DNA of 64,000 bases from Chloroflexota bacterium (GTDB lineage Bacteria > Chloroflexota > Dehalococcoidia > UBA2979). Both the position numbers and the translations under genes were made by a program. The notes under the pieces were generated by a model that saw only the letters and a list, made by a program, of their open reading frames with translations, was not told the origin of the DNA and searched no databases. The stretch lies in NCBI GenBank assembly GCA_045863195.1, contig BTUI01000001.1, positions 395,453 to 459,452 on the forward strand. The letters are read 5' to 3'. Positions 27,758 through 62,385 of this stretch are shown here, in pieces (the first letter of the stretch is position 1; the number at the start of each line of letters is the position of its first letter).

Positions 27758-27882
27758 CAGGCCGCCCCCGCCGCGTTGCCGGGCGATCCGCCGCTCACTA
27801 CGATTTCTGTCGGGGTCACCGCAGGAGGAGAAGGACACTGCTCCACCGCCGGCCATGGACCGCTGGGCGGGTTGCCGTCCTC

Positions 27883-29250
27883 GTGCTCTTCGCCACCCTG
27901 GCGGCCAGCGCCGGGCTGCCGCGTGCCACCCCGCCCGCCGAGGTCGGCGCCACCCCACCGGAAACCGACCTGCTCTACCTCCAGCCGGCCTCGGGCGTCT
28001 CCGCCGAGGGGCTCGCGGAGGCGCTCCGCGTGCTCGGCGTGGAGGTGGTGACGGCGGGCGTGGACGGCGCGCGTGTCGCCGTGCCCCCGGGCGCGGAGCC
28101 GGCGGCCCTCGCCGCCCGCCTCGCCGCCAGCGGCCTCGCCCGCAGCGTGGAGGGCGACGGCATCGTCCGCGCCGCGCGCGAGCCGGACGATCCGCGTTAT
28201 GTCGAACAGTCGCACTACCTCGACGCGATCGGCGCGCCGCAGGCGTGGGCGCGCGCCACCGGCGGGGGCGTGGTGATCGCCGTGATCGACACCGGCATCG
28301 ACCTCGCCCACCCGGATCTCGCGTCGCGGCTGTTCGTGAACCGCGGCGAACTGGCGAACGGCCGCGACGACGACGCCAACGGCTGCGTGGACGACGTCAG
28401 CGGCTGCTCCTTCGTCTCGCCGGTCACGGCGGACCCCTCCTGCGGCTACACCACCGCCCCACCCCACGCCGGCGTGCAGGACGACGAGGGGCACGGCACG
28501 TTCGTCGCCGGCATCGCCGCCGCCGCCGGGGACAACGGCCGCGGCATCGCCGGGGTCGCCTGGGACGCCCGCCTGCTGCCGGTGAAGGTGCTGGACTGCA
28601 CGGCGACCGGCCGCATTTCGGACGCGGCGGGCGGCATCCGCTACGCCGCGCGCCTCGGCGCGGACGTCATCAACATCTCCTTCGGCACGCTCACCGACTC
28701 GCCCGTGCTGCGCGACGCCGTCCGCGAGGCGCAGGCGCTCGGCGCCGTGGTCGTCGCCTCCGCCGGCAACGACGGCCGCCGCGGGGTCACCTACCCGGCC
28801 CGCTACGACGACGTGCTCTCGGTCGCCGCCAGCGGTCTGCAGCGCGCCACCGGGCTGGACTACCGCGCGACCGCCACCTTCGCGAACTTCGGCGGCGGCG
28901 TGGACTTCCTCGCCCCTGGCGTGCGCGTGCTCAGCACGGTGCCGGCCGGCCTCTGCGGCCGCCGCGGCTGGGTGTGCGGAGAGGACGGCCCCTACGCCGT
29001 GGCCAGCGGCTCCTCGTTCGCCACGCCGGTCGTGGCGGGCGCGGTGGCGGTCATGCTCGCGCGTCACCCCGGCCGCTCCCCGGACCTCGCCGTGCGCCTC
29101 CTGCTCGGCGCGCGCGGCCCCGGCGCCACCGTCGCCGACGCGCGCGTCCTCGACCTCGGCGCGGCGGTGGAACGCGAGGTGTTCACGCTCGGCGCGCCCG
29201 GCACCAGCCGCGCCGGCGGCGGCGCCGTGCCGGGCCCGCGGGACGACTGA
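27883..29250 (+). CDS. S8-family (subtilisin-like) serine peptidase, secreted
   Basis: 455 aa. Catalytic triad motifs VIAVIDTGID, HGTFVAGIAAA and GSSFATPVVAG. The GTG start is uncertain, since a signal-peptide-like stretch (RVAVLVLFATLAASA) is encoded just upstream in frame without a canonical start. Confidence 0.75.
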   Translation: MLFATLAASAGLPRATPPAEVGATPPETDLLYLQPASGVSAEGLAEALRVLGVEVVTAGVDGARVAVPPGAEPAALAARLAASGLARSVEGDGIVRAAREPDDPRYVEQSHYLDAIGAPQAWARATGGGVVIAVIDTGIDLAHPDLASRLFVNRGELANGRDDDANGCVDDVSGCSFVSPVTADPSCGYTTAPPHAGVQDDEGHGTFVAGIAAAAGDNGRGIAGVAWDARLLPVKVLDCTATGRISDAAGGIRYAARLGADVINISFGTLTDSPVLRDAVREAQALGAVVVASAGNDGRRGVTYPARYDDVLSVAASGLQRATGLDYRATATFANFGGGVDFLAPGVRVLSTVPAGLCGRRGWVCGEDGPYAVASGSSFATPVVAGAVAVMLARHPGRSPDLAVRLLLGARGPGATVADARVLDLGAAVEREVFTLGAPGTSRAGGGAVPGPRDD

Positions 29251-31932: not shown

Positions 31933-32346
31933 TCAAGGCGCGGACGGCCCGATCCGCCGCAGCACGATCCGCTCGCCCGGGAAGCGGTGGTCCGCCGTCA
32001 CTACCTCCGCGTCACCCCGGGACACGGCGCGCGCCCAGATCAGCGCATCCCCGAACGAGACCCGCCCGGACGGCCGGCACATCAGCAACGCCTCGGTCAT
32101 GGTCTCGGCCTCGATCTGGTCGAGCACGATCGCCTCATGCTGGATGAGGGCGAGCAGCACGTCCACGATCTCCTCGCGGGAGCGCCGGTACTGGCTCCGG
32201 AGTACGAAGGCGGTCTCCAGGATGACGGCGTCGGTCAGCACGAAGGCCTCGCCAGCGTCGAGGAGCCGCGCCACGGCGGCGGCGGAGGTGGCCGGCTCGC
32301 CCGTGAGGTAGCGCATCACCACCGAGGTATCGAGCAGCGCGGTCAC
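31933..32346 (-). CDS. vapC: Type II toxin VapC (PIN-domain ribonuclease)
   Basis: 137 aa with PIN acidic residues (LLDTSVV ... LTDAVILE ... TAD). Overlaps the upstream antitoxin gene by 4 nt. Confidence 0.8.
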   Translation of the reverse strand: MTALLDTSVVMRYLTGEPATSAAAVARLLDAGEAFVLTDAVILETAFVLRSQYRRSREEIVDVLLALIQHEAIVLDQIEAETMTEALLMCRPSGRVSFGDALIWARAVSRGDAEVVTADHRFPGERIVLRRIGPSAP

Positions 32347-32657
32347 GGGCGCTCAGATGCCGTGAGGTCGCGGAGCGCCGTCTGCTTGGCCTCCCACTCC
32401 TCCGCGATCGCGCGCTCGATGCTGCGGTCGAGCATCTCGTTGTACTCCTCCTCGCTGAGGTGGGCGTACGAGACGTCCGAGGACGGGCGAAGGATGCCGA
32501 ACAGCGAGCGGTTGTGCTTCGGCGGGACGAAGTGGATCTCGACGTGGTCGTCGACCACGCGCTCGATCGCGAGCCAGCCGGGGCCGATGCCCAGGCGGTC
32601 GCGGATCTCCTTGCTGATGACGATCTGGCCCTTCGGCCCCATGACCGGCATGGTCAC
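32343..32657 (-). CDS. vapB: Type II antitoxin VapB (AbrB/MazE/SpoVT swapped-hairpin family)
   Basis: 104 aa. N-terminal SpoVT/AbrB-like beta-barrel (KGQIVISKEIRDRLGIGPG) and acidic C-terminal tail. ATGA overlap with vapC. Confidence 0.7.
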   Translation of the reverse strand: MTMPVMGPKGQIVISKEIRDRLGIGPGWLAIERVVDDHVEIHFVPPKHNRSLFGILRPSSDVSYAHLSEEEYNEMLDRSIERAIAEEWEAKQTALRDLTASERP

Positions 32658-32923: not shown

Positions 32924-34810
32924 CTAGGTCAGCGCCACCACGCGGCCCGTCGCCTGCTTGGCGACGGCCTTCGGCGCGACATCGATGCAGGCGCCGCAGC
33001 GGATGCACGCGGCGTCGTCCACGCTGCGGTGGCCGGCGTTGCCGCGGAACGCGGCGACCGGGCAGATCGCGACCGCCTCGGCGAGGGCGGGGTCGTACTG
33101 GTTGGTCACGACGACCCGGTACAGCCCCTTCATCGTCAGCGAGGGGTCCTCGCCGCGCAGCGCCGCCTCATAGTCGGCGTGGAAGTGCTGGAGCATGTTG
33201 CGGGTGATCTTGGGGCTGAACTGGCCGTGCACGCAGTTGGAGAACTGCAGCGTGCGGTCGATCAGCTTCAGGTTCGGCTCGTCCTCGCGGCGCCCGCGTC
33301 CGTCGATGATGCGGCGGAGGATCTCCGTCTGCCGCTGGTTGCCGCCGTGGCACGTGGTGCAGCGGCCGCAGGACTCCTCCTCCACGAACGCGGAGAACAT
33401 CTCCGCGAGGACGAGGACGCTGGTCTTGTCGTTGCAGAAGACGATGCCGCCGCCGCCCATGATCGCGTCCCACGGCGTGAAGGAGTCGCCCTGGAGGATC
33501 AACTTCGGCAGCGCGTGCGCCGGCAGCAGCGAGCCGAGCGGGCCGCCGGACTGGATCGCCTTCAGTTCGCCGCCCACCATGCCGCCGCAGACCTCCAGCA
33601 CCTTCGCCAGCGGCGTCGCGAACGGGAGCTCCATGAAGCCGACCCGCGCGATGTCGCCCGAGAAGGAGAAGATCTTGGTGCCGGTGGCACGCTCCGAACC
33701 GTACTGCCGGTACCACTCGGAGCCGTGCAGCAGGATGAGCGGGGCGTTGGCGTACGACTCCACGTTGTTCACGTTGGACGGCTTGTCGAACACGCCGCGC
33801 TGCGCCGGGAACGGCGGCTTGACGCGCGGCATGCCACGGTCGTCCTGGATCGAGGAGAGCAGCCCCGTCTCCTCGCCACAGACGTACGCGCCAGCGCCGC
33901 GGATCACCCGCAGGTGGAACGTGAGGCCGGTGCCGAGGATGTCCTCGCCGAGGAGCCCAGCCGTCTCCGCGTCGCGGATCGCCTGCTCCATGCGCGCGAT
34001 CGCCAGCGGGTACTCGTCACGCAGGTAGATGAACCCCTGCTTCGACTTCGTGCCGTACGCGCCGATCAGCATGCCCTCGATCAGGAGGTGCGGGTCGCCC
34101 TCCATCACCACGCGGTTCACCCACGCACCCGGGTCGCCCTCGTCCGCGTTGCAGACCAGGTAGTGCTCGTCCCCGGCGGCGCCGAAGAGGAAGTTCCACT
34201 TCACGCCGGTCGGGAAGTTCGCGCCGCCGCGCCCCGTGAGGCCGGCGTCGTTCATCGTGTTCCGCACCTGCTCCTCGGAGGCGTGCCGCCCGAGCATGCG
34301 CGCCGAGGCGCGGTAGCCGTCCCGCGCGATGTAGTGGTCCAGCGACTCCGGGTCGGTGAGGCCCAGGTTCCGCAGCAGGCGCCGCTCGCGCGGCTCCAGC
34401 GCGAAGAACGGGTGGTCGCGCAGCGACGGGACGCCCTCGCGCGTGCCGGCGACGAGGCCGATGCGCAGCGTCTCCGCGGCGCCCCAGTGGCCGGTCGCCT
34501 CGTCCACGATCAGGCTGGCGTTCTCCGCGGTGACCGGGCCGTAGAGGACCGTCGCGCCGTCCGGGAAGGTGATCTGCACCGTCGGGTGCAGCCACTGGAT
34601 GCCGTAGCCGTGCACCTGCCCGAGGTCGACGGCCGCGTTCCGCTCGGCGGCGATCCGCTCGATCGCGGCGCGCGTCCGGCGCGCGCCGTTCGAGATGGAG
34701 GACTGGTCGATGGCAACGTCGATGCGCGGGCGCTCCGGCGTCCGCCAGGCGGCGTAGGCCGCGTCCGCGGCGGCGCGCAGGACCTCGTAGCGCTCCAGCG
34801 CGTCAGGCAT
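32924..34810 (-). CDS. NADH dehydrogenase 51-kDa (NuoF-like) flavoprotein with N-terminal thioredoxin-like and C-terminal 2x[4Fe-4S] ferredoxin domains (HndC/HoxF/FdhB-like diaphorase subunit)
   Basis: ATG at 34810 (MPDALERYEVL...) gives 628 aa. Motifs: FMN/NADH site GRGGANFPTGVKW, NADEGDPGA, RGAGAYVCGEETGLL. N5 Fe-S site ESCGRCTTC. C-terminal CxxCxxC...CP ferredoxin motifs. 8-nt overlap with the upstream NuoE-like gene. Confidence 0.8.
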   Translation of the reverse strand: MPDALERYEVLRAAADAAYAAWRTPERPRIDVAIDQSSISNGARRTRAAIERIAAERNAAVDLGQVHGYGIQWLHPTVQITFPDGATVLYGPVTAENASLIVDEATGHWGAAETLRIGLVAGTREGVPSLRDHPFFALEPRERRLLRNLGLTDPESLDHYIARDGYRASARMLGRHASEEQVRNTMNDAGLTGRGGANFPTGVKWNFLFGAAGDEHYLVCNADEGDPGAWVNRVVMEGDPHLLIEGMLIGAYGTKSKQGFIYLRDEYPLAIARMEQAIRDAETAGLLGEDILGTGLTFHLRVIRGAGAYVCGEETGLLSSIQDDRGMPRVKPPFPAQRGVFDKPSNVNNVESYANAPLILLHGSEWYRQYGSERATGTKIFSFSGDIARVGFMELPFATPLAKVLEVCGGMVGGELKAIQSGGPLGSLLPAHALPKLILQGDSFTPWDAIMGGGGIVFCNDKTSVLVLAEMFSAFVEEESCGRCTTCHGGNQRQTEILRRIIDGRGRREDEPNLKLIDRTLQFSNCVHGQFSPKITRNMLQHFHADYEAALRGEDPSLTMKGLYRVVVTNQYDPALAEAVAICPVAAFRGNAGHRSVDDAACIRCGACIDVAPKAVAKQATGRVVALT

Positions 34811-35324
34811 TGATCGCCTCCTCGATGCTGCCGCCCGCCTGCAGGGTGCGCGCCATGCGCACCGCGCGCGCGGCGGACATGCCGCCGACCGGCTCGATCG
34901 TGTGGGTCTCGTGCTGCTCCAGCCACACCATCGGCGCGACCTCGCAGGCACCGTTGCACTGGCCCAGGATGACGCCCACGCGGCCGTCCTCCGTCTGCCC
35001 GTTCATGTGCGAGATGCCGAGGCTGGCGAGGAGCGCGTCGCGGATGCCGTTCCCGTTGCGCAGCCGGCAGGCCGGCCCGGAGCACCAGCGGATGTTCGTG
35101 TGCGCCTGCGGCTGGAAGCGGAACTCCTCGTAGTAGGAGGCGGCGCCGTACACGTGCGCGGGGAAGAGGCCCAGCTGCTCGCCGATGACCTCCATCGCCT
35201 CGGAGGAGAGGTAGCCGAACTCGTGCTGGACGCGGTGGAGGGCGGCCAGCAGGTCGCCGTTGTTCGGTCGGAATTCCGCCACCAGCGCGCGGAGGCGCGC
35301 CCGGCTTTCGGTCTCCAGCGGCAT
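34803..35324 (-). CDS. NADH dehydrogenase 24-kDa (NuoE-like) [2Fe-2S] thioredoxin-like subunit
   Basis: 173 aa. [2Fe-2S] ligands C-x4-C ... C-x3-C (RWCSGPACR ... GQCNGACEVAP). Confidence 0.8.
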   Translation of the reverse strand: MPLETESRARLRALVAEFRPNNGDLLAALHRVQHEFGYLSSEAMEVIGEQLGLFPAHVYGAASYYEEFRFQPQAHTNIRWCSGPACRLRNGNGIRDALLASLGISHMNGQTEDGRVGVILGQCNGACEVAPMVWLEQHETHTIEPVGGMSAARAVRMARTLQAGGSIEEAINA

Positions 35325-35440
35325 CAGCGACCCCTCACCCGGTCCGAGGCGTGCTCGTGCGCGGCGTCACACGCCGGGCACTACGGCTGCACTCTACCAA
35401 CGGGCGACCTACGGGCCAAGACGAGGCGGCCCCGGCCCGG

Positions 35441-36808
35441 TTACGCCCCCGGCGCGCGCGGCGGCGCGGCGTCATCCTCGATCAGGCGTGCGACGCGCCG
35501 GCCCATGCGGATCGAGTAGTTCTGACCCCGGTCCTCCGGGTAGATCTGGGTCGTGTTCGCCAGGTAGAGCCCCGGCACGGGCGTCCGGTGCGGCGGGATC
35601 GTTTCGTGGTAGCGGGCGTGCACCACCGGCTGGCCGGCGCGGTCCTTGAAGAGCCACGACTGCCGCACCCACGACCGCTCGAATGCCGGGTTGATCCGCC
35701 GGATCCACGGCTCGTACCGGTCGAGGAGTTCGTCCGCGCTCAGGTCGACCATCGGGTCGCCCGGGCTCATGTAGTCGGAGAGGTAGAGGACGTGGTTGCC
35801 GCCGTACGTCTCCGGCGGCAGGAAGTTGGATTGCTCCACCGCCACCACGAACGGCGCATCCTCGTCCGTCATCGTGAGCCAGTAGATGCCGGAGAGCGGC
35901 CGGTCCAGCGCGAGCACCAGCACGGTGGCCCACTGGTACTGCACCGCGCCCAGCATCCGCGCATACGCCTCCCCCGCCGGGTACGGCGTCAGGTCGGGCG
36001 CGATCCGCTGGAACAGCGGCGAGGGCGTCGTCGCCAGCACGGCGTCGGCGCGCACCTCCTCGCCGGCGCGCGCGCCGCCGAGCACCACGCCGGCCGCCCG
36101 GCCGTCCTCCACGATCACGCGCTCGACGGGCGTGCCCGCCTCCAGCGTGCCGCCCCGCTCGCGGCAGGCGGCGACCATCGCGTCGATCAGCCGTCCGAAG
36201 GAGCCGCGCAGGTAGCCGAGTTGCTCCTTCGCGAGCAGCCCGCGCAGCCCGCCGCCCTGTCGGGAGGCGAAGCGGAGGTGGATCTTCCCCCAGAACCAGA
36301 CGAGCGAGACGTCCTCCGCGTGCTCGCCGAACTTGGCGCGGAGCAGCGGCCCCCACACCCGGTCGTAGCCCTCGCGGCCCACGCGCGAGCGGATCCACGC
36401 GCTGGCGCGCTTCCCCTCGTACTGCTTCCAGTCGGCGAAGCGGCGCAGCCACAGCGCGGTGAGGCCGAGGCGCAGGCGGCTCAGGAGCGAGACCCGGTCG
36501 AAGCGGAGCAGGTCCACGGCACCGATGAACGGGTAGTTCTTCCCGCCCGCGTGCAGGCCCACGTTCGAGTCGATCCACGCGAGGTCGTCGCCAAGGCCCA
36601 GCGCCTCGATCATCGCGACGGCGTCCGTGTCGGAGCGGAAGAGGTGGTGGTAGAAGATCTCCAGGCGGCCGCCGCCCACCTCGAAGGTGCGCACCTGGCC
36701 GCCGAACTCTGGCGACGCCTCGAACAGCGCGACCTCGTGGCCACGGCCGAGCAGTTCGTACGCCGCCGCGAGGCCCGCGACGCCGCCGCCCACGATCACG
36801 ACCTTCAT
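35441..36808 (-). CDS. NAD(P)/FAD-dependent oxidoreductase (amine oxidase / phytoene desaturase / protoporphyrinogen oxidase superfamily)
   Basis: ATG at 36808 (MKVVIVGGGVAGLAAAYELLGRGHEVALFEASPEFGGQ...) is a classic dinucleotide-binding GxGxxG-x17-E motif. 455 aa. The upstream part of the track ORF is an artefact. Confidence 0.7.
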   Translation of the reverse strand: MKVVIVGGGVAGLAAAYELLGRGHEVALFEASPEFGGQVRTFEVGGGRLEIFYHHLFRSDTDAVAMIEALGLGDDLAWIDSNVGLHAGGKNYPFIGAVDLLRFDRVSLLSRLRLGLTALWLRRFADWKQYEGKRASAWIRSRVGREGYDRVWGPLLRAKFGEHAEDVSLVWFWGKIHLRFASRQGGGLRGLLAKEQLGYLRGSFGRLIDAMVAACRERGGTLEAGTPVERVIVEDGRAAGVVLGGARAGEEVRADAVLATTPSPLFQRIAPDLTPYPAGEAYARMLGAVQYQWATVLVLALDRPLSGIYWLTMTDEDAPFVVAVEQSNFLPPETYGGNHVLYLSDYMSPGDPMVDLSADELLDRYEPWIRRINPAFERSWVRQSWLFKDRAGQPVVHARYHETIPPHRTPVPGLYLANTTQIYPEDRGQNYSIRMGRRVARLIEDDAAPPRAPGA

Positions 36809-37812
36809 GCGCGCCCCCCTGCCCCCGCGACCTCGCCCTTCGCCGCCTCGCGCGTCAGCGTCCGCACGCGCACGCCCTGCACCCACGCCAGCGCGAACCC
36901 GGCCACCGCGATCGGCAGCAGGACGAACACGTGGAGCACGAGGGCGAACGCCGTCCCCGCCGCCGCCGTCGCGCCGAAGCGCACCACGACCTCGCGCGCG
37001 AAGAATTCGTACGGGCCGATGCCGCCAGAGGTGCTCGGCGCGGCGATCGCCAGGTTCGCCGCGCCGCAGACGCCGAGGTACAGCGCCGGCGAGAGGTCGA
37101 GGCCAAACGACCGTCCGACCATCCAGTAGGAGGCCGCTTCGAGCAGCCAGGTGAGCAGCGTGAGCGAGAGCACCCGCGCCCACGCCCCGCCCCCGCGGAG
37201 AAGCACGAGCCCCTCCAGGAAGCGCCCGAGGACCGCCTCGACGCGCACCCGAAGCGCCCCCGGCGCGAAGCGGAGCAGGACGGCGAGCAGCGCGCGGCCG
37301 CGCGCCGGCCAGAGGCCCAGGCCCAGCACCACCAGCGTGCCGGCGCCGAAGCCGGCGGCCGCGATTGCGGCGAACACGCGCAGCGCCGGCGTGCTCCCCG
37401 CGAGCGCGACCGTGCCGGCGAGGAACAGCGCGAGGACCAGGCCGTCCAGGATGCGCTCCACGACGATCGTGCCGATCGCGGTGGCGGAGGAACCGCCGTG
37501 CCGGCGCCGGATCAGCACCGCCCGCACGACCTCGCCGGCGCGGGCGGGGAAGACGTTGTTTGCGGCGAGCCCGATCGTGACGAGCGTGGCCGCCTCGCGC
37601 GTGGTCAGCGGCACGACGGGACGGAGGATCACGGCCCAGCGCTCCGAGCGGACGACGACCGAGGCAGCGAGCAGCGCGAGCGCCGGTGCGAACCACCGCG
37701 CGTCCATCCCGCGCAGCGCGTCCAGCGTCTCCTGGCGGTCGACCTGCGCGAGCAGCAGCACGAGGAACGCCACGCTGACGGCGAGGCCGATGAGCGTGCG
37801 GGCGTGGCGCAT
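36805..37812 (-). CDS. UPF0104 / lysylphosphatidylglycerol-synthase-TM-domain-like (flippase-like) membrane protein
   Basis: 335 aa and polytopic. Family signature region (RWAVILRP ... AANNVFPARAGEVVR). ATGA overlap with the downstream FAD oxidoreductase. Confidence 0.65.
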   Translation of the reverse strand: MRHARTLIGLAVSVAFLVLLLAQVDRQETLDALRGMDARWFAPALALLAASVVVRSERWAVILRPVVPLTTREAATLVTIGLAANNVFPARAGEVVRAVLIRRRHGGSSATAIGTIVVERILDGLVLALFLAGTVALAGSTPALRVFAAIAAAGFGAGTLVVLGLGLWPARGRALLAVLLRFAPGALRVRVEAVLGRFLEGLVLLRGGGAWARVLSLTLLTWLLEAASYWMVGRSFGLDLSPALYLGVCGAANLAIAAPSTSGGIGPYEFFAREVVVRFGATAAAGTAFALVLHVFVLLPIAVAGFALAWVQGVRVRTLTREAAKGEVAGAGGRA

Positions 37813-37872
37813 GCGCGATCCTGACGGTGTGCGGGGTGGGCCCGTCCAGTCTCCGCGATCAGCCGCGCGGCG

Positions 37873-39822
37873 TCACGGCCCCGTCACCCCCACCGTCCCC
37901 CGCGGGTACAGCACCTCCGCGTCCATCGTCCCGATGCCCTCGGGCGAGCCGCGCTCGACCAGGAACTGCGCCCAGCGCCGCAGCAGCGAGCCGTCCCGCA
38001 GCCCTTCGCCGAAGGAGGCCCAGGTCGTCGCCCGGTAGCCATCCTCGCGGAACCAGTGCCGGTGGACGAAGGGGACGCCGGGCTCGTAGTCCAGGCGCAT
38101 CGGCTGGACGCGGGTGATCGTGCCCTGCACCGCCAGGAGGATGTCGTCCGGTTCGATCCCCCACTTGTTCCGCATCGAGTTCCCATCGAGGTACGTCACG
38201 TTCGTCCCGCGCAGGTACCACGCCCACGGCCAGGTGAGCGACGCGGTGGTGTCGATCACCACGCGCTGCTCCGGATCCGCCGCCAGCCGCTCCCGCAACG
38301 TGCGCGCCAGCGGCGGGACGTGGGGCGAGGTCTGCACGTAGATCATCGGCTCCACGGGCGTGTCCGGGTGCCGCACGTTCAGCCCCACGTTCGCGTGCAC
38401 CGCGAGGGCGAACGCCCCGACCACGAACGTGGCTCCCACGCCACCGAGCGCCCAGCGCCACGGCGCGCCTCGCCGCTCCCGGACCGCCGGCAGCGCTGCG
38501 CTGACCGCGCCGCCGAGCGCGTACGCCGCGAGGAAGGAGAGCGGGATCGCGAGGTGGACGGTGAGCCACGGCATCTTCTCGCCAGCGACAGAGAGCGCCA
38601 GCATCGTGCCGGCGAACCAGATCACGAGCAATGCCGCCAGCGGGTCGCGCCGCCTCGCCACCAGCCACGGCCCCGCGGCGAGCGCCGGCCAGAGGACCAG
38701 CGATTCGTAGAGCGGCAGCAGCATCACGTAGTAGAACCACGGCTGCTTCCCGCGCTCCACGTCGTGCTGCTCGATCCAGTAATCGAGCGAGGTCCAGAAC
38801 GGGCCGGCGATGCCGTCCGGGTTCGTGCCGAAGGTCGTGTACAGCAGGATCGTCACCATCATGAAGACGGCGATCGCCATCGACCACCGCGCCGCGTCCC
38901 ACAGCAACCCCACGACGGTCGCGCCGGCCCACAGCACCAGCACGGTGGTCAGCCCCACCACGAAGAGCGCATCGCCTTCCAGCGGCCCGCCGAAGCGCTC
39001 CCACGGGACACGCACCGCCGCCGCCAGCATCGGCAGCACCAGCGTGCCGAGGAGCACGAGCAGGTCGGCCTCCCTCGGCCGTTCGCGGAGGCCGAGGCGT
39101 TCACGCAGCGGGCGCAGCGGCCGCCACAGCGCCGCGAAGATCCACGCCGTGGGGATGAGCCACGCGCCGCCGAGCGCCTGGCGCCAGAGCGGCACCCGCT
39201 CGCCCTCGCGCGCGTCCCAGAACAGGCGGTGCGCTACTGCCAGGTCGAGGTAGACGAGCAGCACCGCGGCGGTGAGGTAGGCGCTCTCCTTCGTCGCGAA
39301 CGCGAACGCGGTCATCGCCGCGAACAGCAGCAGCCAGCGCTCGCGACCGTCGTCCCGGTAGCGCCAGAGCGCGATCACCTGCAGCACCGTGAACAGCGCG
39401 ATGAACGCATCCTCGCGCGCGAAGCGGGTGTAGTAGAGGACGGACGGCGAGACGCAGAGGAAGAGCGCGGCCAGCACCGTCCCCGGCCCGCCGAGCCAGC
39501 GCCGCAGCAGCAGCGGCGTCGTCACGAGCGCGGTGCCGAAGATCGCGTGCGGCCACCGCGCCATCGCGTCGCCGTCGCCGAAGAGCCAGAAGAAGGCGGC
39601 CATGATGTGGAACTGGAACGGGCCGTGCATCAGCGGGTTGTGGCGGTAACCGTCCCCCTGCGCGAAGTAGTACGAGTACGTCGCGTGCAGCGACTCGTCG
39701 TGGTGCAGTGCGCGCACCTCGAGGCCCACGATGCGCATGACGAACGCCGTCGCGGCGATCGCGATCACCGCCCAGCCCACGCGGTCGGGACGGAGCGAGG
39801 CCCACGGGACGCGCTGGATCAC
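37873..39822 (-). CDS. TIGR03663-family polytopic membrane protein (GT-C fold, ArnT/PMT-like glycosyltransferase candidate)
   Basis: GTG at 39822 overlaps the stop of the upstream DUF2298 gene (GTGA). About 650 aa. N-terminal TM bundle with a DE/HHDE motif (LHHDESLHATYSYYF) as in GT-C glycosyltransferases. Large C-terminal domain. Confidence 0.65.
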   Translation of the reverse strand: MIQRVPWASLRPDRVGWAVIAIAATAFVMRIVGLEVRALHHDESLHATYSYYFAQGDGYRHNPLMHGPFQFHIMAAFFWLFGDGDAMARWPHAIFGTALVTTPLLLRRWLGGPGTVLAALFLCVSPSVLYYTRFAREDAFIALFTVLQVIALWRYRDDGRERWLLLFAAMTAFAFATKESAYLTAAVLLVYLDLAVAHRLFWDAREGERVPLWRQALGGAWLIPTAWIFAALWRPLRPLRERLGLRERPREADLLVLLGTLVLPMLAAAVRVPWERFGGPLEGDALFVVGLTTVLVLWAGATVVGLLWDAARWSMAIAVFMMVTILLYTTFGTNPDGIAGPFWTSLDYWIEQHDVERGKQPWFYYVMLLPLYESLVLWPALAAGPWLVARRRDPLAALLVIWFAGTMLALSVAGEKMPWLTVHLAIPLSFLAAYALGGAVSAALPAVRERRGAPWRWALGGVGATFVVGAFALAVHANVGLNVRHPDTPVEPMIYVQTSPHVPPLARTLRERLAADPEQRVVIDTTASLTWPWAWYLRGTNVTYLDGNSMRNKWGIEPDDILLAVQGTITRVQPMRLDYEPGVPFVHRHWFREDGYRATTWASFGEGLRDGSLLRRWAQFLVERGSPEGIGTMDAEVLYPRGTVGVTGP

Positions 39823-42086
39823 GGCGCGACCTCCGCCGGCACCTCGTAGATGCGGGTCGCGCCGGAGGCGAACACCTGCGGCCAACCGGCGAGGCGGCCG
39901 AGGACGTCGTAGGTGTAGGTCGTGAGTTCATGGAAGCCCACGTAGACGTGGGTCACCCCGTAGCGCCGAGCCGCGGCGAGCCCCTCGGGCGTCGCGCCGT
40001 GCGTGTAGATGGCGTCCACCGCCTCGCGTCGCGCGGCCTCGTCGACCGCGCCGCGCCACTGGCGCTGGTGGCCGGGCCAGCCGAGGACCGTGGGGACGCC
40101 GGTGCTGGCGGCGAGCATGTTCCCGGTCGTGTACGACTCGCCGACCGCCTGCACCACCACCGCCCCTTCCGGATCGAGGTTCGCGCGCACCCACCGACCC
40201 GCCTCCGCGAGGCCGGGGTCCGTGCGATCAAGGTAGGCGATCGCATCGATACCGAATGCCTGCGCCTCCCGATGGCGGCTCACCAGCATCGCGGGCACCG
40301 TCAGCGCGCACGCGACGAACACGACCGCGCCGGCTCCGACGAGCGACGCCGTGAGACGCCTCGACGCCCACGCTGGCCGCTCGGCGCGCTCCACGGCGAT
40401 CCCGGCGAGCGCGCCCGCGGCGACGGCGACGATCGCCCACGCGTGGAACCAGAACTTGAACACGGTGTTGAGGCGCCCCTCGAACGCATCGTCGATGTGC
40501 ACGACCTCCGTCAGCAGCAGGACGAGCAGCGCGGCCGCGCCGAGCGCGAGCGACGCCGCGAGGCCGCGATCCCGGCGGGCGTCGGCGGCGTACGCCGCGC
40601 CCCCGAGCCACGCGACGAGCAGCGGGAGCACCAGCAGCGTCGCCCAGCCCCCGCCACGCACGGCGAACTCGCCCGGACGGCCCTGCAGGAGCATCGCCAC
40701 TGCCCACGTGAGAACGGGCAGGGCCGCGAGCAGCAGCGGGCGTCGCCAGCGCAGCGGGACGCCTCCCGCCCACGCCGCGGCGAGGACGAGCGGGAGCCCC
40801 GGCGCCAGCCAGACCGCCAGCCACGGCGCGAGGTCGGAGCGCTCGCCCGTCACGGGGGCGATCCCGACCGGCGGCGGGTCGAGGCCCTCGAGGAACGGGA
40901 ACGCCAGCAGCAGGGCGAGCCCGGCGGGGGCGGCGGCCCAGCGCACCGCGATGAAGAGCGCCTGCGCGTATGCCCAGCCCACGCGCCGCACCGCGATCAC
41001 GGCGGCAAGCCCCCACACCCCCCCGAAGGTGACCACGTCCCACAGGTTCGTCATGGCGAGCGCGGCGAAGAGCGCCCCGGTCAGCGCGAGGTCGTGCGGC
41101 CGCCGCAGCCAGCGCCGCCACGTCAGCGGGGTGTTGCCCTCGAACGTCACGAGGGCGAGCGCGACGACGGTCAGCCCGATCGGCAGCGCCATCAGGTGCG
41201 CGTGCGGGTCGCCGAGGATCAGCGTGAACGCGGGGTACTCCGAGATCGTCCCCGGCACGACGCGGGTGGTGTTCCACCACCACCAGAAGCGCTCCGGCAC
41301 GCCCGTCCGCGCACCCTCGGCGGCGGGCAGGCCCTCGATCCCCGTCCACGCCCAGTCGCGGCCGACCCCGTTCGCCGCGAGCAGGTCGATGAACCCGACG
41401 GCCGGTGCGGCGAAGAGCAGCACCGCCACCGCCACCCCGCCCGCGACCAGGCGCGCGCGACGCCTCGCCGCCCCGGCCATGCCGAGCAGGTCGAGCGCCA
41501 GGCCGGCGGCGGCGACGGCCGCGGCCGCGCCGGCGGTCGCGGTCGCGAGGTTGAAGGTGGTCGCGGGGCCGTTCCCGGAGAGCCGGCCGACCACATCCAT
41601 CGTCGTGTGGCCCAGGTGGTAGTAGGAGAGCGACGCCCCGGCGAACCACGGGTCGGGCGGCGGGAGCGTCTCCGAGCGGTGCACCGCCGTGAGGATCGCG
41701 AGGTCCATCGGCTTCTCGGTCGCCCACGCGTCCGGCGCCAGCGCCCGCACCAGCGCCAGCGCCGCGAAGAGCAGCGCCGTCGCCGCAGCGGTGAGCGCGA
41801 CCGCGCGCCAGCGAGCCCGGAGGGCGACGAGGAGCGCCGGGCGACGCCACGCGATCAGCGCCGACCACGCCCACCACGCCGCGAGCGACGCGGCGGCGAC
41901 CGGCGTGCCGTACGGCAGTACCAGCGCCCCGGCGAGCCAGGCGATGAGGCCGACCACGGCGAGGCCGAGCGGCAGCGCGTACGGGACGCCTCGGGAGGGC
42001 AGACGTTCGAAGAGCAGCGCGGACGGCAGCAGGCCGCCTCCAGCGACCAGCAGCAGCACCAGCAGCCAGGCCAGGGACTCGGTCAC
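39819..42086 (-). CDS. DUF2298 (Chlor_Arch_YYY domain, TIGR03662-like) large polytopic membrane protein
   Basis: 755 aa with more than 12 TM helices. Central conserved block (YYHLGHT ... EYPAFTLILGDPHAHLMALP). This family is typically adjacent to TIGR03663 genes in Chloroflexi and Archaea. Confidence 0.65.
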   Translation of the reverse strand: MTESLAWLLVLLLVAGGGLLPSALLFERLPSRGVPYALPLGLAVVGLIAWLAGALVLPYGTPVAAASLAAWWAWSALIAWRRPALLVALRARWRAVALTAAATALLFAALALVRALAPDAWATEKPMDLAILTAVHRSETLPPPDPWFAGASLSYYHLGHTTMDVVGRLSGNGPATTFNLATATAGAAAAVAAAGLALDLLGMAGAARRRARLVAGGVAVAVLLFAAPAVGFIDLLAANGVGRDWAWTGIEGLPAAEGARTGVPERFWWWWNTTRVVPGTISEYPAFTLILGDPHAHLMALPIGLTVVALALVTFEGNTPLTWRRWLRRPHDLALTGALFAALAMTNLWDVVTFGGVWGLAAVIAVRRVGWAYAQALFIAVRWAAAPAGLALLLAFPFLEGLDPPPVGIAPVTGERSDLAPWLAVWLAPGLPLVLAAAWAGGVPLRWRRPLLLAALPVLTWAVAMLLQGRPGEFAVRGGGWATLLVLPLLVAWLGGAAYAADARRDRGLAASLALGAAALLVLLLTEVVHIDDAFEGRLNTVFKFWFHAWAIVAVAAGALAGIAVERAERPAWASRRLTASLVGAGAVVFVACALTVPAMLVSRHREAQAFGIDAIAYLDRTDPGLAEAGRWVRANLDPEGAVVVQAVGESYTTGNMLAASTGVPTVLGWPGHQRQWRGAVDEAARREAVDAIYTHGATPEGLAAARRYGVTHVYVGFHELTTYTYDVLGRLAGWPQVFASGATRIYEVPAEVAP

Positions 42087-42116: not shown

Positions 42117-42518
42117 CTACGCGCTCGCCCCCGGCTGGAACGGCGGCTCGTCCTCGCGCAGCGGGCGGAAGCGGAGCGCCGACCAGGTCTCGTCCACGGC
42201 GACCTGCGTGATCGGCCGCATCCCGTGCTCCGCGACGATCGGCCAGAGCGAGTCGCGGTTGACGTCCGCGCGTCCGCCCTTCGGGTAGACGAACCACACG
42301 AGCGGCGTCGCCAGCAGCGCCTTCGCGAGGCGCTTCACCGCGGCGCGCGCGGCCGCCTGCGAGTCGACGAACACGACCGCGGCGGTCGCGCTCGCGAGCC
42401 GCGAGGTGACTGTGACTCCCTCCGGCAGGTCACCGAGGAGCGGGATGCGCGCGGCGTCCGAGCACCAGAGCGCCGCCCCCGGCTTCAGCAGCAACTTCTC
42501 GGCCGTGCTCTTCGCCAT
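42117..42518 (-). CDS. Hypothetical protein (DUF3052-like)
   Basis: 133-aa ORF in a clean 400-nt slot between ftsY and the membrane cluster. No motif recognised with confidence. Confidence 0.4.
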   Translation of the reverse strand: MAKSTAEKLLLKPGAALWCSDAARIPLLGDLPEGVTVTSRLASATAAVVFVDSQAAARAAVKRLAKALLATPLVWFVYPKGGRADVNRDSLWPIVAEHGMRPITQVAVDETWSALRFRPLREDEPPFQPGASA

Positions 42519-42533: not shown

Positions 42534-43493
42534 CTACGAGGCCTCGTCGCCGAGCAGCGACGCGACGAACGCGCGCGGGTCGAACGGCGCCAGGTCGCCC
42601 TCGCGCTGGCCGACGCCGACGAAGCGGACCGGCAGGCCGAACTCGCGCGCAATCGCGAAGACGATGCCGCCCTTCGCCGTGCCGTCAAGTTTCGTGAGCA
42701 TCACGCTCGTCACCTGCACCGCCTCGGTGAAATGGCGCGCCTGAGAGAGGCCGTTCTGGCCGGTGGAGGCGTCCAGCACCAGCAGCACCTCGTCCGGGCC
42801 ACGCTCGACGTGGCGCTCGATCACCCGGCGCGTCTTCGCGAGTTCGGCCATCAGGTTCTGCTTGTTCTGTAGACGACCGGCGGTGTCGATCAGCACCACG
42901 TCATGCCCGCGCGCCTGCGCCGCGGAGATCGCGTCGAACGCGACCGCCGCCGGGTCGGCCCCCTGGCCCTGCGCGACGACATCGAAGCGCCGCCGCTCGC
43001 CCCAGGTCTGCAGTTGCTCGATCGCGGCGGCGCGGAAGGTGTCGCCGGCGGCCGCCATCACGGTGCGGCCCTCCTCCTGGTAGGCGTGCGCCAACCGCCC
43101 GATCGCGGTGGTCTTGCCGGACCCGTTCACGCCAACCACCAGCACCACCCACGGCTTCGAGGGCATCGTGGTGCCCTCAGGCAGCCCCCAGAGACGGCCG
43201 CGGGGCGCCTCCGCGCTTTCGAGGATGGCGACGAGTTCCTCTGCGAGGTAGCGGCGCACCTCGTCGGACCGGCGCGGGTTGCGGGCGCGGACGCGGCCGA
43301 GCACCTCGAACGTGGTCTCCACGCCAGCGTCGGCGCCGATCAGCACCTCCTCCAGCGTCTCCCACAGCTCTTCGGTGACGTCGGAGCCGCCGAACAGGCC
43401 GGCGACGCGGCCGAAGATCGAGGTGCGCGTGCGCTCCAGCGCTTGCTCGGTCGCCTGGTCGCTCTCCTTGCTCCGCCCGCCGAAGAGCCTCAC
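42534..43493 (-). CDS. ftsY: Signal recognition particle receptor FtsY
   Basis: 319 aa. SRP GTPase motifs (VGVNGSGKTT, DTAGR, TKLDG). N-terminal helical bundle. Confidence 0.85.
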   Translation of the reverse strand: MRLFGGRSKESDQATEQALERTRTSIFGRVAGLFGGSDVTEELWETLEEVLIGADAGVETTFEVLGRVRARNPRRSDEVRRYLAEELVAILESAEAPRGRLWGLPEGTTMPSKPWVVLVVGVNGSGKTTAIGRLAHAYQEEGRTVMAAAGDTFRAAAIEQLQTWGERRRFDVVAQGQGADPAAVAFDAISAAQARGHDVVLIDTAGRLQNKQNLMAELAKTRRVIERHVERGPDEVLLVLDASTGQNGLSQARHFTEAVQVTSVMLTKLDGTAKGGIVFAIAREFGLPVRFVGVGQREGDLAPFDPRAFVASLLGDEAS

Positions 43494-56605: not shown

Positions 56606-56971
56606 GGGTGTCCCCCGGTGTGATGGCGTCGTGAGACGCCGGATAGCGGTAGAGGTGGGGTGGCCGTGCCCCGCCGTCGTTCGGCCCTGCCGGCTTACTC
56701 GCGCTGGCCTGCTCAAACCCGGCGACCCCGTGGCACCCAGCACGTTCGGCTTACCGTTGCTGCCTTCCGGCCCTGGCGGGGTTCACCGGGTGCTGCCGCA
56801 CAGGACCAGGCTCTCAACGCCGCCTGGCGTCCGCAGTCCCTTCAGTGTCGATCTCGGACGGGCATTCAGCCCCGCTCAAGCGGATTGCGGGTACAGGGCA
56901 CCGCTAACTCCCCGCCTAGCACGACCACGTCGATCGTAGCAGCGGCCCTCGGGAGGCGCGAACCGCTCGGC

Positions 56972-62324: not shown

Positions 62325-62385
62325 GTCGTCGTCGCTGGCATCGGCCTGACCGCGTTACCCCGCGCGGCCGGGCCAGTGAGTGTGA

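What the first reader, a model, noticed from the sequence alone, without database searches (positions are those of the whole stretch)
32924..42086. Translationally coupled DUF2298(YYY)-TIGR03663-UPF0104-FAD oxidoreductase membrane cluster followed by an orphan NuoE/NuoF-like diaphorase pair
Four consecutive minus-strand genes are joined by overlapping stop and start codons: GTGA at 39819-39822, a short gap at 37812/37873, and ATGA at 36805-36808. They are a >12-TM DUF2298 protein, a GT-C-like TIGR03663 protein with an HHDE motif, a UPF0104 flippase-like protein, and a GxGxxG FAD oxidoreductase. After a 116-nt gap on the same strand comes a NuoE-like [2Fe-2S] subunit and a NuoF-like flavoprotein with thioredoxin and 2x[4Fe-4S] extensions (HndC/HoxF type). 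No hydrogenase, formate dehydrogenase or Nuo partner is present. The arrangement suggests an uncharacterised envelope glycan or lipid modification system that may draw reducing power from NADH via the diaphorase pair. None of the DUF families has an assigned function.
Basis: partly seen in the sequence, partly recalled or inferred. Interest (0 to 1): 0.65.

Follow-up and report, generated by a model that had tools for sequence, protein, structure and literature searches.

The report
Envelope glycosylation genes beside separate NuoEF operon
Four tightly packed membrane-protein genes in this Chloroflexota genome look like a lipid-carrier-dependent machine for adding sugars outside the cell, and the neighbouring NADH-oxidising gene pair has its own conserved promoter and shows no sign of belonging to it.

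Summary
The gene calls, coordinates and junctions are confirmed. The four membrane genes split into two translationally coupled pairs.

- **DUF2298/TIGR03662 with TIGR03663.** TIGR03663 is now named "flippase activity-associated protein Agl23". AlphaFold models of both proteins match only GT-C glycosyltransferases in the PDB.
- **UPF0104 with an FAD enzyme.** UPF0104 is the MprF flippase domain family. The FAD enzyme belongs to NCBIfam PRK07233.

In 80 related Dehalococcoidia loci both pairs follow ftsY nearly always. One genome has moved the first pair 2.3 Mb away. Elsewhere, PRK07233 homologues sit in other polyprenyl-phosphate-sugar contexts (GtrA, GT2, DprE1/DprE2-like, WecG/Wzy).

The best reading is an outward-facing, polyprenyl-phosphate-sugar glycosylation system of the "three-component" kind. 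It lacks a linked sugar-carrier synthase.

The proposed link to NuoEF is not supported:
- FADox and nuoE never overlap.
- Unrelated genes separate them in 24 of 73 informative loci, the pair is inverted in 4 and absent in 7.
- A conserved TTGAnC-N17-TATAGT promoter lies upstream of nuoE in 40 of 67 loci.

The NuoF-like protein is of the Bfu/NfnB type. It has lost the N-terminal [2Fe-2S] cluster and one C-terminal [4Fe-4S] cluster. No redox partner lies nearby in the window or in the related loci.

The claim that no family has an assigned function is out of date. Interest is moderate.

The parts
42534..43493 (-). ftsY (SRP receptor). This is context: the glycosylation genes follow it directly.
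   Evidence: SRP54 domain, E 1e-73. In related loci DUF2298 starts a median of 12 nt after ftsY, and within 40 nt in 43 of 47 loci. No promoter-like site is enriched upstream of DUF2298.
42117..42518 (-). 133-aa hypothetical gene inserted between ftsY and DUF2298. It is specific to this genome.
   Evidence: No Pfam hit. No tblastn match in any of 80 related loci.
39819..42086 (-). DUF2298 / TIGR03662 (Chlor_Arch_YYY) membrane protein of 755 aa, predicted to have a GT-C glycosyltransferase fold.
   Evidence: PF10060 at 300 bits and TIGR03662 at 403 bits against a cut-off of 300. AlphaFold2 model: pLDDT 94.4, pTM 0.95. The 14 best Foldseek PDB matches are all GT-C enzymes: DPY19, AglB, STT3 and AftA, with E from 1.5e-5 to 7e-3. 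Invariant residues include E124, D145, Y155, Y156, E283, D293, H295, E527, R538 and K544.
37873..39822 (-). TIGR03663 / Agl23-family protein of 649 aa with a GT-C fold. Its GTG start overlaps the DUF2298 stop codon.
   Evidence: TIGR03663 at 269 bits against 126; PMT_2 E 3.6e-12. Model: pLDDT 87.3, pTM 0.90. Best PDB matches are ArnT 5f15 (E 2.5e-6), STT3, ALG9, Pmt4, DPY19 and PglB. H40, H41, D42, E43 and H66-G67-P68 are invariant.
36805..37812 (-). UPF0104 / LPG_synthase_TM (MprF flippase-domain family) membrane protein of 335 aa.
   Evidence: PF03706 E 1.3e-46; TIGR00374 at 69 bits against 43. It lies immediately upstream of FADox in 64 of 68 informative loci.
35441..36808 (-). FAD-dependent oxidoreductase of 455 aa, NCBIfam NF005560 (PRK07233), with the amine-oxidase / phytoene-desaturase fold. 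Its ATG overlaps the UPF0104 stop codon.
   Evidence: NF005560 at 450 bits against 252; Amino_oxidase E 3.5e-36. 65-87% identical across Dehalococcoidia. UPF0104 and FADox overlap in 49 of 64 loci. The closest solved relatives by sequence are 3ka7, plant phytoene desaturase 5mog and protoporphyrinogen oxidase.
35391..35419 (-). Sigma-70-type promoter-like site upstream of the nuoE-like gene: TTGGCC-N17-TAGAGT.
   Evidence: Read. The homologous TTGAnC-N17-TATAGT site is within 200 nt upstream of nuoE in 40 of 67 related loci, against a shuffle mean of 0.6.
35357..35370 (-). Conserved leader motif GTGACGCCGCGCAC, which partly resembles a Rex operator.
   Evidence: GTGA-N6-[GT]CAC occurs in 11 of 71 nuoE leaders, against a shuffle mean of 0.2. 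The resemblance to the Rex box comes from my own knowledge and was not tested.
34803..35324 (-). NuoE-like [2Fe-2S] protein of 173 aa.
   Evidence: PF01257 E 8.7e-29. It scores below the NCBIfam NuoE, HoxE and FdsG cut-offs. Cys 81, 86, 123 and 127 are invariant.
32924..34810 (-). NuoF-like FMN / [4Fe-4S] flavoprotein of 628 aa, Bfu/NfnB type. It has a Cys-less N-terminal thioredoxin-like domain and one extra C-terminal [4Fe-4S] site.
   Evidence: Complex1_51K and NADH_4Fe-4S domains; TIGR01959 at 391 bits, below its cut-off of 559. Best solved relatives are NfnB 9n5u_B (444 bits) and the NiFe-Bfu subunit 7t2r_B. Cys pattern.
31933..32657 (-). 104-aa gene followed by a PIN-domain gene, probably a VapBC toxin-antitoxin pair. 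This is context between NuoF and MutS.
   Evidence: PIN domain E 6.7e-14. No match in the 80 related loci.

Best explanation
The region holds two separate things.

**(A) A glycosylation block.** It is probably read through from ftsY and consists of two translationally coupled pairs.
- Pair 1 is DUF2298 plus the Agl23-family protein. Both have the GT-C fold. GT-C enzymes take a sugar from a polyprenyl-phosphate carrier and transfer it at the outer face of the membrane. Haloarcula Agl23 also moves lipid-linked glycans across bilayers in vitro.
- Pair 2 is the UPF0104 protein, a homologue of the MprF lipid-flippase domain, plus a PRK07233 flavoenzyme.

Inferred mechanism:
1. A sugar is loaded onto polyprenyl phosphate by a synthase encoded elsewhere.
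2. The flavoenzyme modifies the lipid-linked sugar, or its carrier, at the cytoplasmic face.
3. UPF0104 and/or Agl23 translocate it.
4. The GT-C proteins transfer it to a surface protein, glycan or lipid.

**(B) An independently transcribed nuoE/nuoF-like operon.** It encodes an NADH-oxidising FMN/Fe-S module of the Bfu/NfnB lineage. The module has lost two of that lineage's extra clusters, and its partner is encoded elsewhere. It is a syntenic neighbour of the glycosylation genes, not a component of them.

Shown here: the folds, family memberships, gene coupling, synteny and promoter conservation. Inferred: substrates, the order of steps, and the absence of any NuoEF-FADox electron transfer.
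For: **Fold and family**
- Family scores exceed the curated cut-offs.
- Both large membrane proteins model confidently and match only GT-C enzymes in the PDB.

**Pair 1 is a unit**
- The stop and start codons overlap in 30 of 51 loci.
- A 1464-aa PMT_2+DUF2298 fusion exists in L091.
- Distant DUF2298 genes sit next to PMT_2 and small GT2 genes in L085, L088 and L092.
- In genome OZ241365.1 the pair moved together to another site, while UPF0104-FADox stayed after ftsY.

**Pair 2 is a unit**
- The codons overlap in 49 of 64 loci.
- UPF0104 is immediately upstream of FADox in 64 of 68 loci.

**PRK07233 recurs in polyprenyl-phosphate-sugar contexts**
- Proteobacterial plasmids carry DPPR-synthase-like, DprE1-like, DprE2-like, epimerase, PRK07233 (510 bits) and an overlapping GtrA gene.
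- Embleya has DegT, GT2 and an overlapping FADox homologue.
- An alternative Dehalococcoidia locus has Wzy_C, WecG and FADox.

**Literature**
- Purified Agl23 translocates M5GN2-PP-Dol (PMC11182771).
- UPF0104 is predicted to be a glycosylation flippase and neighbours PMT/STT3-like genes in Archaea (PMC5898192).
- The three-component scheme is described in PMC11127046.

**NuoEF is separate**
- Gap statistics, inserted genes, inversions and absences.
- The promoter is enriched only upstream of nuoE and mutS.
Against: - No polyprenyl-phosphate sugar synthase (GT2 or UbiA type) lies in the 64-kb window or is conserved in the related loci. The donor is therefore unknown.
- No acceptor is identified.
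- Agl23 has been described as a flippase, not a transferase. The roles of the two GT-C-fold proteins cannot be separated here.
- The flavoenzyme's closest solved relatives act on isoprenoids and tetrapyrroles, so a lipid substrate is equally possible.
- NuoEF lies within 10 kb downstream of FADox in 66 of 73 informative loci, and within 300 nt in 32. A lineage-specific functional link cannot be excluded by genomics alone.
- Promoter calls are pattern matches, not mapped transcript starts.
Confidence: 0.6

Rival explanations
1. All six genes form one system, and the NuoEF pair oxidises NADH and passes electrons to the FAD oxidoreductase. That enzyme would then reduce a lipid or a lipid-linked glycan, for example by saturating a polyprenol carrier.
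For: - NuoEF is on the same strand within 300 nt of FADox in 32 of 73 informative loci, and within 10 kb in 66.
- No other redox partner is nearby in the window or in relatives.
- The flavoenzyme belongs to a fold that includes isoprenoid desaturases and reductases.
Against: - FADox and nuoE never overlap, and nuoE has its own conserved promoter.
- Unrelated transporter, dehydrogenase and regulator genes are inserted in 24 loci. The pair is inverted in 4 and absent in 7, including the two most divergent cluster-bearing loci.
- smc, ftsY and mutS are equally syntenic.
- PRK07233 homologues in three other contexts lack NuoEF.
- The flavoenzyme has no Fe-S motif that would receive electrons.
Confidence: 0.08
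2. UPF0104 and the flavoenzyme form a membrane-lipid system unrelated to glycosylation. The flavoenzyme would desaturate or saturate an isoprenoid or other membrane lipid and UPF0104 would flip the product. The pair merely sits beside the DUF2298-Agl23 pair.
For: - The two pairs are separable: OZ241365.1 keeps UPF0104-FADox after ftsY with DUF2298-PMT_2 elsewhere.
- Distant DUF2298 clusters lack UPF0104 and FADox.
- The second-best NCBIfam match is HpnE at 105 bits, and plant phytoene desaturase aligns over 300 residues.
- Characterised UPF0104 proteins such as MprF and GpgF act on phospholipids (PMC12713373).
Against: - Every other context found for PRK07233 involves polyprenyl-phosphate-sugar or surface-glycan genes: GtrA, GT2, DprE1/E2-like and WecG/Wzy.
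- No isoprenoid or carotenoid pathway genes are in the window.
- The pairs are adjacent in 60 of 64 loci.
- Archaeal UPF0104 genes neighbour PMT/STT3-like genes (PMC5898192).
Confidence: 0.2
3. The arrangement has no functional meaning beyond gene packing. This is a compact genome, and unrelated housekeeping genes (rnc, smc, ftsY, the membrane genes, nuoEF, mutS, mutL) have simply stayed syntenic within one bacterial class.
For: - The whole run from smc to mutS is conserved.
- Overlapping stop and start codons are common in compact high-GC genomes.
- All 80 loci come from one class.
Against: - The within-pair links extend beyond this class: the PMT_2+DUF2298 fusion and the DUF2298/PMT_2/GT2 clusters in distant lineages.
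- In other phyla PRK07233 overlaps a GtrA gene in Proteobacteria and a GT2 gene in Embleya.
- The DUF2298-PMT_2 pair relocated together in OZ241365.1.
Confidence: 0.1

Closest known systems
Three-component extracytoplasmic glycosylation systems, such as GtrABC and CsbB/GtcA/YfhO. They comprise a polyprenyl-phosphate sugar synthase, a small flippase and a GT-C transferase (PMC11127046, PMC11194591).
   Same: - GT-C-fold proteins are encoded next to a putative lipid-linked-sugar flippase.
- Relatives of the flavoenzyme sit in DprE1/DprE2/GtrA-type clusters.
   Different: - No linked synthase gene.
- The flippase candidate is UPF0104 rather than GtrA.
- Two GT-C-fold proteins from uncharacterised or atypical families.
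- An added PRK07233 flavoenzyme.
- The acceptor and the sugar are unknown.
Haloarcula hispanica Agl22/Agl23 (Lu et al. 2020, Mol Microbiol 114:762, cited in PMC11182771).
   Same: The window protein passes the TIGR03663 (Agl23) model. It shares the invariant DE and HGP motifs.
   Different: - It is bacterial.
- No Agl22-type dolichol-phosphate hexose synthase is adjacent.
- It is paired with DUF2298.
- Identity to a haloarchaeal Agl23 is about 34% over the first 170 residues only.
Archaeal UPF0104 (arCOG00899) neighbourhoods with PMT/STT3-like proteins and AglD-like glycosyltransferases (PMC5898192).
   Same: UPF0104 lies next to a PMT-like GT-C protein. It is predicted to flip lipid-linked sugars.
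   Different: - Here UPF0104 is translationally coupled to a flavoenzyme, not to a GT2 domain.
- The host is a bacterium.
Bfu-family NADH modules: NfnBC, HydBC, and the HoxF-like subunit of Stn (PDB 9n5u, 7t2r, 8oh5).
   Same: The NuoF-like protein is closest to NfnB and to the NiFe-Bfu subunit B (444 and 440 bits). It has the same three-domain layout and is paired with a NuoE-like [2Fe-2S] subunit.
   Different: - The N-terminal [2Fe-2S] Cys are replaced.
- The first CxxCxxC of the C-terminal ferredoxin domain is replaced.
- No BfuA-type catalytic subunit is nearby.

Membership tests
TIGR03663 / Agl23 family | Score above the curated NCBIfam cut-off | tested here: met
   269 bits against 126.
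TIGR03663 / Agl23 family | Conserved N-terminal DE dipeptide, HGP tripeptide and Arg residues. These are the family hallmarks as I recall them from the TIGRFAMs description. | tested here: met
   D42, E43, H66, G67, P68, R89, R133 and R136 are invariant in 42 homologues.
TIGR03663 / Agl23 family | Translocation of lipid-linked glycans | not testable with these tools
   Shown only for purified H. hispanica Agl23 (PMC11182771).
GT-C glycosyltransferase fold | Multi-span membrane fold matching solved GT-C enzymes (Agl23-like protein) | tested here: met
   Model pLDDT 87.3. The top 27 Foldseek PDB matches are all GT-C, led by ArnT at E 2.5e-6. PMT_2 E 3.6e-12.
GT-C glycosyltransferase fold | Multi-span membrane fold matching solved GT-C enzymes (DUF2298 protein) | tested here: met
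   Model pLDDT 94.4. The top 14 Foldseek PDB matches are all GT-C: DPY19, AglB, STT3 and AftA. TM-scores are only 0.3-0.56. There is no profile similarity to the Agl23 family.
GT-C glycosyltransferase fold | Transferase activity with a polyprenyl-phosphate sugar donor | not testable with these tools
   Conserved acidic residues are present: D42/E43 in the Agl23-like protein, and E124, D145 and D293 in DUF2298. Their position relative to an active site was not analysed.
TIGR03662 / DUF2298 (Chlor_Arch_YYY) | Score above the cut-off, and the Tyr-rich motif | tested here: met
   403 bits against 300. Y155 and Y156 are invariant, within SYYHLG.
UPF0104 / MprF flippase domain (PF03706, TIGR00374) | Scores above the curated cut-offs | tested here: met
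   160 bits against 33, and 69 bits against 43.
NCBIfam NF005560 (PRK07233) flavoenzyme | Score above the curated cut-off, and an N-terminal GxGxxG motif | tested here: met
   450 bits against 252. G7, G9 and G12 are invariant.
Three-component glycosylation system | A linked polyprenyl-phosphate sugar synthase (GT2 or UbiA type) | tested here: not met
   None was found among the window's called ORFs. None is conserved in the 80 related loci. It is present in distant DUF2298 clusters.
Respiratory complex I subunits NuoE and NuoF | Scores above the NCBIfam equivalog cut-offs, and a nuo operon context | tested here: not met
   NuoF TIGR01959 scores 391 against 559. NuoE TIGR01958 scores 83 against 142. 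No nuo genes are nearby.
Electron-bifurcating Bfu enzymes | A NuoF-like subunit with an N-terminal [2Fe-2S] and two C-terminal [4Fe-4S] clusters, plus a BfuA catalytic subunit | tested here: not met
   The N-terminal Cys and the first C-terminal CxxCxxC are replaced. No BfuA-like gene lies in the window or the related loci.

The most novel reading that the evidence does not exclude
In Dehalococcoidia the PRK07233 flavoenzyme is a reductase that modifies the polyprenyl carrier or its sugar. It is fed electrons from NADH by the neighbouring partner-less NuoEF module. This would be a dedicated NADH-driven redox step in an archaeal-type surface glycosylation pathway. Under this reading the separate promoter would only allow independent regulation.
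Probability: 0.07. Interest if true: 0.7.

Novelty: new variant of a known kind. Interest (0 to 1): 0.4.

Why it matters
- **DUF2298 is almost unstudied.** Only two papers in the searched library mention it. Here it gets a confident GT-C fold and a fixed partner, the Agl23 family, supported by a natural fusion protein and by joint relocation of the two genes.
- **This bears on what Agl23 does.** It has been described as a flippase, yet it has a transferase fold and a PMT-like DE motif.
- **The PRK07233 flavoenzyme gains a testable context.** It repeatedly overlaps a flippase-like or polyprenyl-phosphate glycosyltransferase gene in four different genomic settings.
- **Possible significance for Dehalococcoidia.** Their envelopes are unusual, and archaeal-type glycosylation machinery would be worth testing experimentally.
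- **The NuoEF result prevents a misleading annotation.** Without it, an NADH-driven glycan system might have been recorded.

Tried and rejected
- **Profile-profile comparison of DUF2298 with the Agl23 and UPF0104 alignments.** No similarity was found: probability 1.3%, 0.1% and 1.6%. The shared GT-C fold therefore rests on the structure models only.
- **Sequence searches of the PDB.** DUF2298, the Agl23-like protein (single sequence and 42-sequence profile) and UPF0104 gave nothing.
- **Built-in promoter and terminator scan.** It found no promoter in 31.5-43.7 kb. The window copy matches only 8 of 12 consensus bases. The site emerged only after aligning the spacers from related loci.
- **Longest-ORF calling in the inserted segments.** It produced several antisense artefacts in these high-GC genomes. 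Only ORFs with recognisable sequence character were used.
- **Redox partner downstream of NuoF.** Clustering of ORFs from the loci that carry NuoF found only MutS, MutL, proteases, GlnE-like, Nudix and SDR genes.
- **UDP-galactopyranose-mutase-like role for the flavoenzyme.** I considered this but did not pursue it. Sequence relatives with long alignments are phytoene desaturase, protoporphyrinogen oxidase and 3ka7.
- **Lu et al. 2020.** The paper could not be read.

Full report
**Source and gene calls**

The window is high-GC DNA (67-77% G+C) from a Chloroflexota metagenome-assembled genome. The flavoenzyme, DUF2298 and TIGR03663 proteins are each 100% identical to proteins named AMXMBFR23_04240, _04270 and _04260.

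Third-position GC separates real genes from the many spurious ORFs. It gives one uninterrupted minus-strand run:

| Gene | Coordinates |
|---|---|
| rnc | 47343-48101 |
| smc | 43614-47273 |
| ftsY | 42534-43493 |
| 133-aa hypothetical | 42117-42518 |
| DUF2298 | 39819-42086 |
| TIGR03663 | 37873-39822 |
| UPF0104 | 36805-37812 |
| FAD oxidoreductase | 35441-36808 |
| NuoE-like | 34803-35324 |
| NuoF-like | 32924-34810 |
| 104-aa gene plus PIN gene | 31933-32657 |
| mutS | 29259-31790 |

- GTGA at 39822-39819.
- A 60-nt gap between TIGR03663 and UPF0104.
- ATGA at 36808-36805.
- A 116-nt gap before nuoE.
- nuoE and nuoF also overlap by 8 nt.

**Family assignments**

All four membrane-cluster proteins exceed curated cut-offs:

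| Protein | Model | Score | Cut-off |
|---|---|---|---|
| DUF2298 | TIGR03662 | 403 bits | 300 |
| TIGR03663 protein | TIGR03663 | 269 bits | 126 |
| TIGR03663 protein | PMT_2 | E 3.6e-12 | – |
| UPF0104 | PF03706 | 160 bits | 33 |
| Flavoenzyme | NF005560 (PRK07233) | 450 bits | 252 |

NCBIfam now names TIGR03663 "flippase activity-associated protein Agl23". What the literature says:
- Agl23 of Haloarcula hispanica was proposed as a flippase for hexose-phosphodolichol.
- The purified protein translocates Man5GlcNAc2-PP-dolichol in liposomes and rescues yeast rft1 deletion (PMC11182771, citing Lu et al. 2020).
- UPF0104 is the flippase domain of MprF. It was predicted in 2015 to be a glycosylation flippase that neighbours PMT/STT3-like genes in Archaea (PMC5898192).

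The statement that none of the families has a function is therefore out of date. It remains true only for DUF2298, which just two papers in the library mention, and for PRK07233.

**Folds**

| Protein | pLDDT | pTM | Foldseek result against the PDB |
|---|---|---|---|
| DUF2298 (40-sequence alignment) | 94.4 | 0.95 | Best 14 matches all GT-C: DPY19 C-mannosyltransferase, archaeal AglB, STT3, AftA. ALG12, ArnT and PglB follow among lower-ranked matches |
| Agl23-like (42-sequence alignment) | 87.3 | 0.90 | Top 27 matches all GT-C, led by ArnT (E 2.5e-6), then STT3, ALG9, Pmt4, DPY19, PglB |

It also shows that DUF2298 belongs to the same fold class. TM-scores are modest (0.3-0.56). The two families show no profile-level similarity to each other. 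They are therefore distant members of the fold, not paralogues.

H40-H41-D42-E43 follows the first transmembrane helix and is invariant. From my own knowledge, it is positioned like the catalytic DE motif of protein O-mannosyltransferases. I did not test this.

**Synteny**

A scan of species-representative genomes with a flavoenzyme alignment found 483 loci. The best 80 were kept, and all are Dehalococcoidia or Chloroflexota assemblies.

tblastn with 13 window proteins gave these counts among loci with enough flank:

| Relationship | Loci |
|---|---|
| UPF0104 immediately upstream of the flavoenzyme | 64 of 68 |
| Agl23-like present upstream | 60 of 64 |
| DUF2298 present upstream | 51 of 55 |
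| ftsY present upstream | 47 of 50 |

Median intergenic distances:

| Junction | Median gap (nt) |
|---|---|
| ftsY to DUF2298 | 12 |
| DUF2298 to Agl23 | -4 |
| Agl23 to UPF0104 | 83 |
| UPF0104 to flavoenzyme | -1 |
| Flavoenzyme to nuoE | 369 (never overlapping) |
| nuoE to nuoF | -8 |

**Two separable pairs**

Several observations show that DUF2298 and the Agl23/PMT_2-type protein form one unit, independent of the second pair:
- In genome OZ241365.1 the UPF0104-flavoenzyme pair follows ftsY directly (L064). An overlapping DUF2298-PMT_2 pair lies 2.3 Mb away (L095).
- Distant DUF2298 homologues of about 30% identity sit beside PMT_2 proteins (L085, L088, L092), with small GT2 glycosyltransferases in L085 and L092. 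None has UPF0104, the flavoenzyme or NuoEF nearby.
- One contig encodes a 1464-aa fusion of PMT/PMT_2 and DUF2298 (L091).
- On a Halogeometricum plasmid, Agl23 overlaps a GtrA-family gene.

**The flavoenzyme**

It is highly conserved, at 65-87% identity over the 120 best clusters. By sequence, its closest solved relatives with long alignments are an uncharacterised Methanosarcina oxidoreductase (3ka7), plant phytoene desaturase and protoporphyrinogen oxidase.

Its genomic contexts elsewhere are informative:
- **Proteobacterial plasmids (Agrobacterium, Burkholderia, Rhodobacteraceae).** A homologue, which in Agrobacterium scores 510 bits on the same NF005560 model, is the penultimate gene of a conserved cluster. 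The cluster runs: UbiA/decaprenyl-phosphate phosphoribosyltransferase-like, DprE1-like (373 bits), DprE2-like (161 bits), epimerase, flavoenzyme, then an overlapping GtrA gene. This is the gene set of the polyprenyl-phosphate pentofuranose pathway that feeds three-component glycosylation systems (PMC11127046). A commentary notes Bacillus versions with several GT-C enzymes and FAD-dependent oxidoreductases (PMC11194591).
- **Embleya.** The homologue overlaps a GT2 gene that follows a DegT aminotransferase.
- **Five Dehalococcoidia loci with a 66-67% identical flavoenzyme and no UPF0104.** The one examined in detail lies after Wzy_C and WecG/TagA-type genes.

The common theme is lipid-carrier-linked sugar metabolism. 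The flavoenzyme is coupled to whichever flippase-like or polyprenyl-phosphate glycosyltransferase gene is present.

I infer that it modifies a polyprenyl-phosphate-linked sugar, by analogy to the DprE1 oxidation step, or modifies the carrier. The chemistry is not established.

**NuoEF**

*What the proteins are*
- Both proteins fall below the NCBIfam cut-offs for complex I, Hox and Fds subunits.
- The NuoF-like protein is closest to NfnB (9n5u_B, 444 bits), to subunit B of the NiFe-Bfu hydrogenase (7t2r_B), and to the HoxF-like subunit of Stn.
- Residue-level alignment to NfnB shows what has been lost:
  - The N-terminal [2Fe-2S] cysteines are replaced: SCG becomes SS, and GCVGMC becomes HGYGIQ.
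  - The first CxxCxxC of the C-terminal ferredoxin domain is replaced.
  - The CP cysteine and the second CxxCxxC remain and are conserved in 60 sequences.
- The protein therefore carries FMN, the N3 [4Fe-4S] cluster and one extra [4Fe-4S] cluster, not two.

*Where the pair sits*

| Position of NuoEF relative to the flavoenzyme | Loci (of 73 informative) |
|---|---|
| Same strand, within 300 nt | 32 |
| Same strand, 300-1000 nt | 6 |
| Separated by 1-6.4 kb of unrelated genes | 24 |
| Inverted | 4 |
| Absent | 7 |

The inserted genes include Na/Pi and MFS transporters, an ABC transporter, an alcohol dehydrogenase and a LuxR-RCC1 protein.

*Its own promoter*
- Aligning the short spacers revealed a conserved TTGAnC-N17-TATAGT element.
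- With the first base of its -35 box allowed to fall within the flavoenzyme's 3' end, it occurs within 200 nt upstream of nuoE in 40 of 67 loci. Shuffles give 0.6.
- The same pattern occurs upstream of mutS in 18 of 34 loci.
- It stays at background level upstream of ftsY, DUF2298, Agl23, UPF0104, the flavoenzyme and nuoF.
- The window copy is TTGGCC (35419-35414) and TAGAGT (35396-35391).

*No partner nearby*
- Downstream of nuoF, relatives carry mutS, mutL, proteases and other unrelated genes. No hydrogenase, formate dehydrogenase, NuoG or GltD-like partner appears.

The pair is indeed "orphan" in its neighbourhood. It is also its own transcription unit, and its adjacency is no stronger than that of smc, ftsY or mutS.

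**Conclusion**

- It is out of date about the families having no known function.
- It is wrong on the NuoF cluster count.
- The NADH-diaphorase link is unsupported.

The four genes are best seen as a Dehalococcoidia variant of lipid-carrier-dependent extracytoplasmic glycosylation. The variant is built from two modules, and its synthase, sugar and acceptor are unknown.

Noticed in passing
window 35357-35370 (minus strand), and nuoE leaders in L003, L006, L007, L008, L010, L019, L024, L031, L039, L077, L078: A conserved leader motif, GTGA-N6-[GT]CAC (for example TGTGAATTCGCGCACG), lies just downstream of the nuoE promoter. It occurs in 11 of 71 loci against 0.2 in shuffles. Its left half matches the Rex redox-repressor operator as I recall it. 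If it is a Rex site, that would fit an NADH-linked role for NuoEF.
   Followed up: partly
window 42117-42518 (minus strand): A 133-aa gene with no Pfam match sits between ftsY and DUF2298. It has no counterpart in any of the 80 related loci, where DUF2298 follows ftsY by about 12 nt.
   Followed up: partly
window 31933-32657 (minus strand): A 104-aa gene overlaps a PIN-domain gene, which looks like a VapBC toxin-antitoxin pair. It is inserted between nuoF and mutS and is absent from all related loci.
   Followed up: no
L091 5610-10004: A single 1464-aa protein fuses PMT/PMT_2 and DUF2298 domains. A second DUF2298 gene follows it.
   Followed up: partly
L081, L082, L083 (proteobacterial plasmids), about 2400-8700 in each: A conserved cluster runs: DPPR-synthase-like UbiA, DprE1-like, DprE2-like, epimerase, PRK07233 flavoenzyme, GtrA. 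It has two candidate oxidase/reductase pairs, which might carry out two successive epimerisations of a lipid-linked pentofuranose.
   Followed up: partly
L021 and L023: Two contigs of the same assembly (DASCQM01, Fu_MAG_70) each carry the FADox-nuoEF-mutS region; L023 has the full cluster, while L021 starts within UPF0104. Identities to the window are near-identical. This suggests strain heterogeneity or a duplicated region in that bin.
   Followed up: no
upstream of mutS in related loci: The same TTGAnC-N17-TAnnnT promoter pattern is enriched upstream of mutS, in 18 of 34 loci against 0.2 in shuffles. This served as an internal positive control.
   Followed up: partly
window 56664-56924 (minus strand) and 62240-62702: A bacterial large SRP RNA scores 146 bits. 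Three tRNA genes (Leu-tag, Lys-ctt, Val-gac) are also present.
   Followed up: no
window 25943-29250: A MutL-like ORF (minus strand, 25943-28396) and a subtilase ORF (plus strand, 27412-29250) overlap as called. Their true starts were not resolved in this very high-GC stretch.
   Followed up: no
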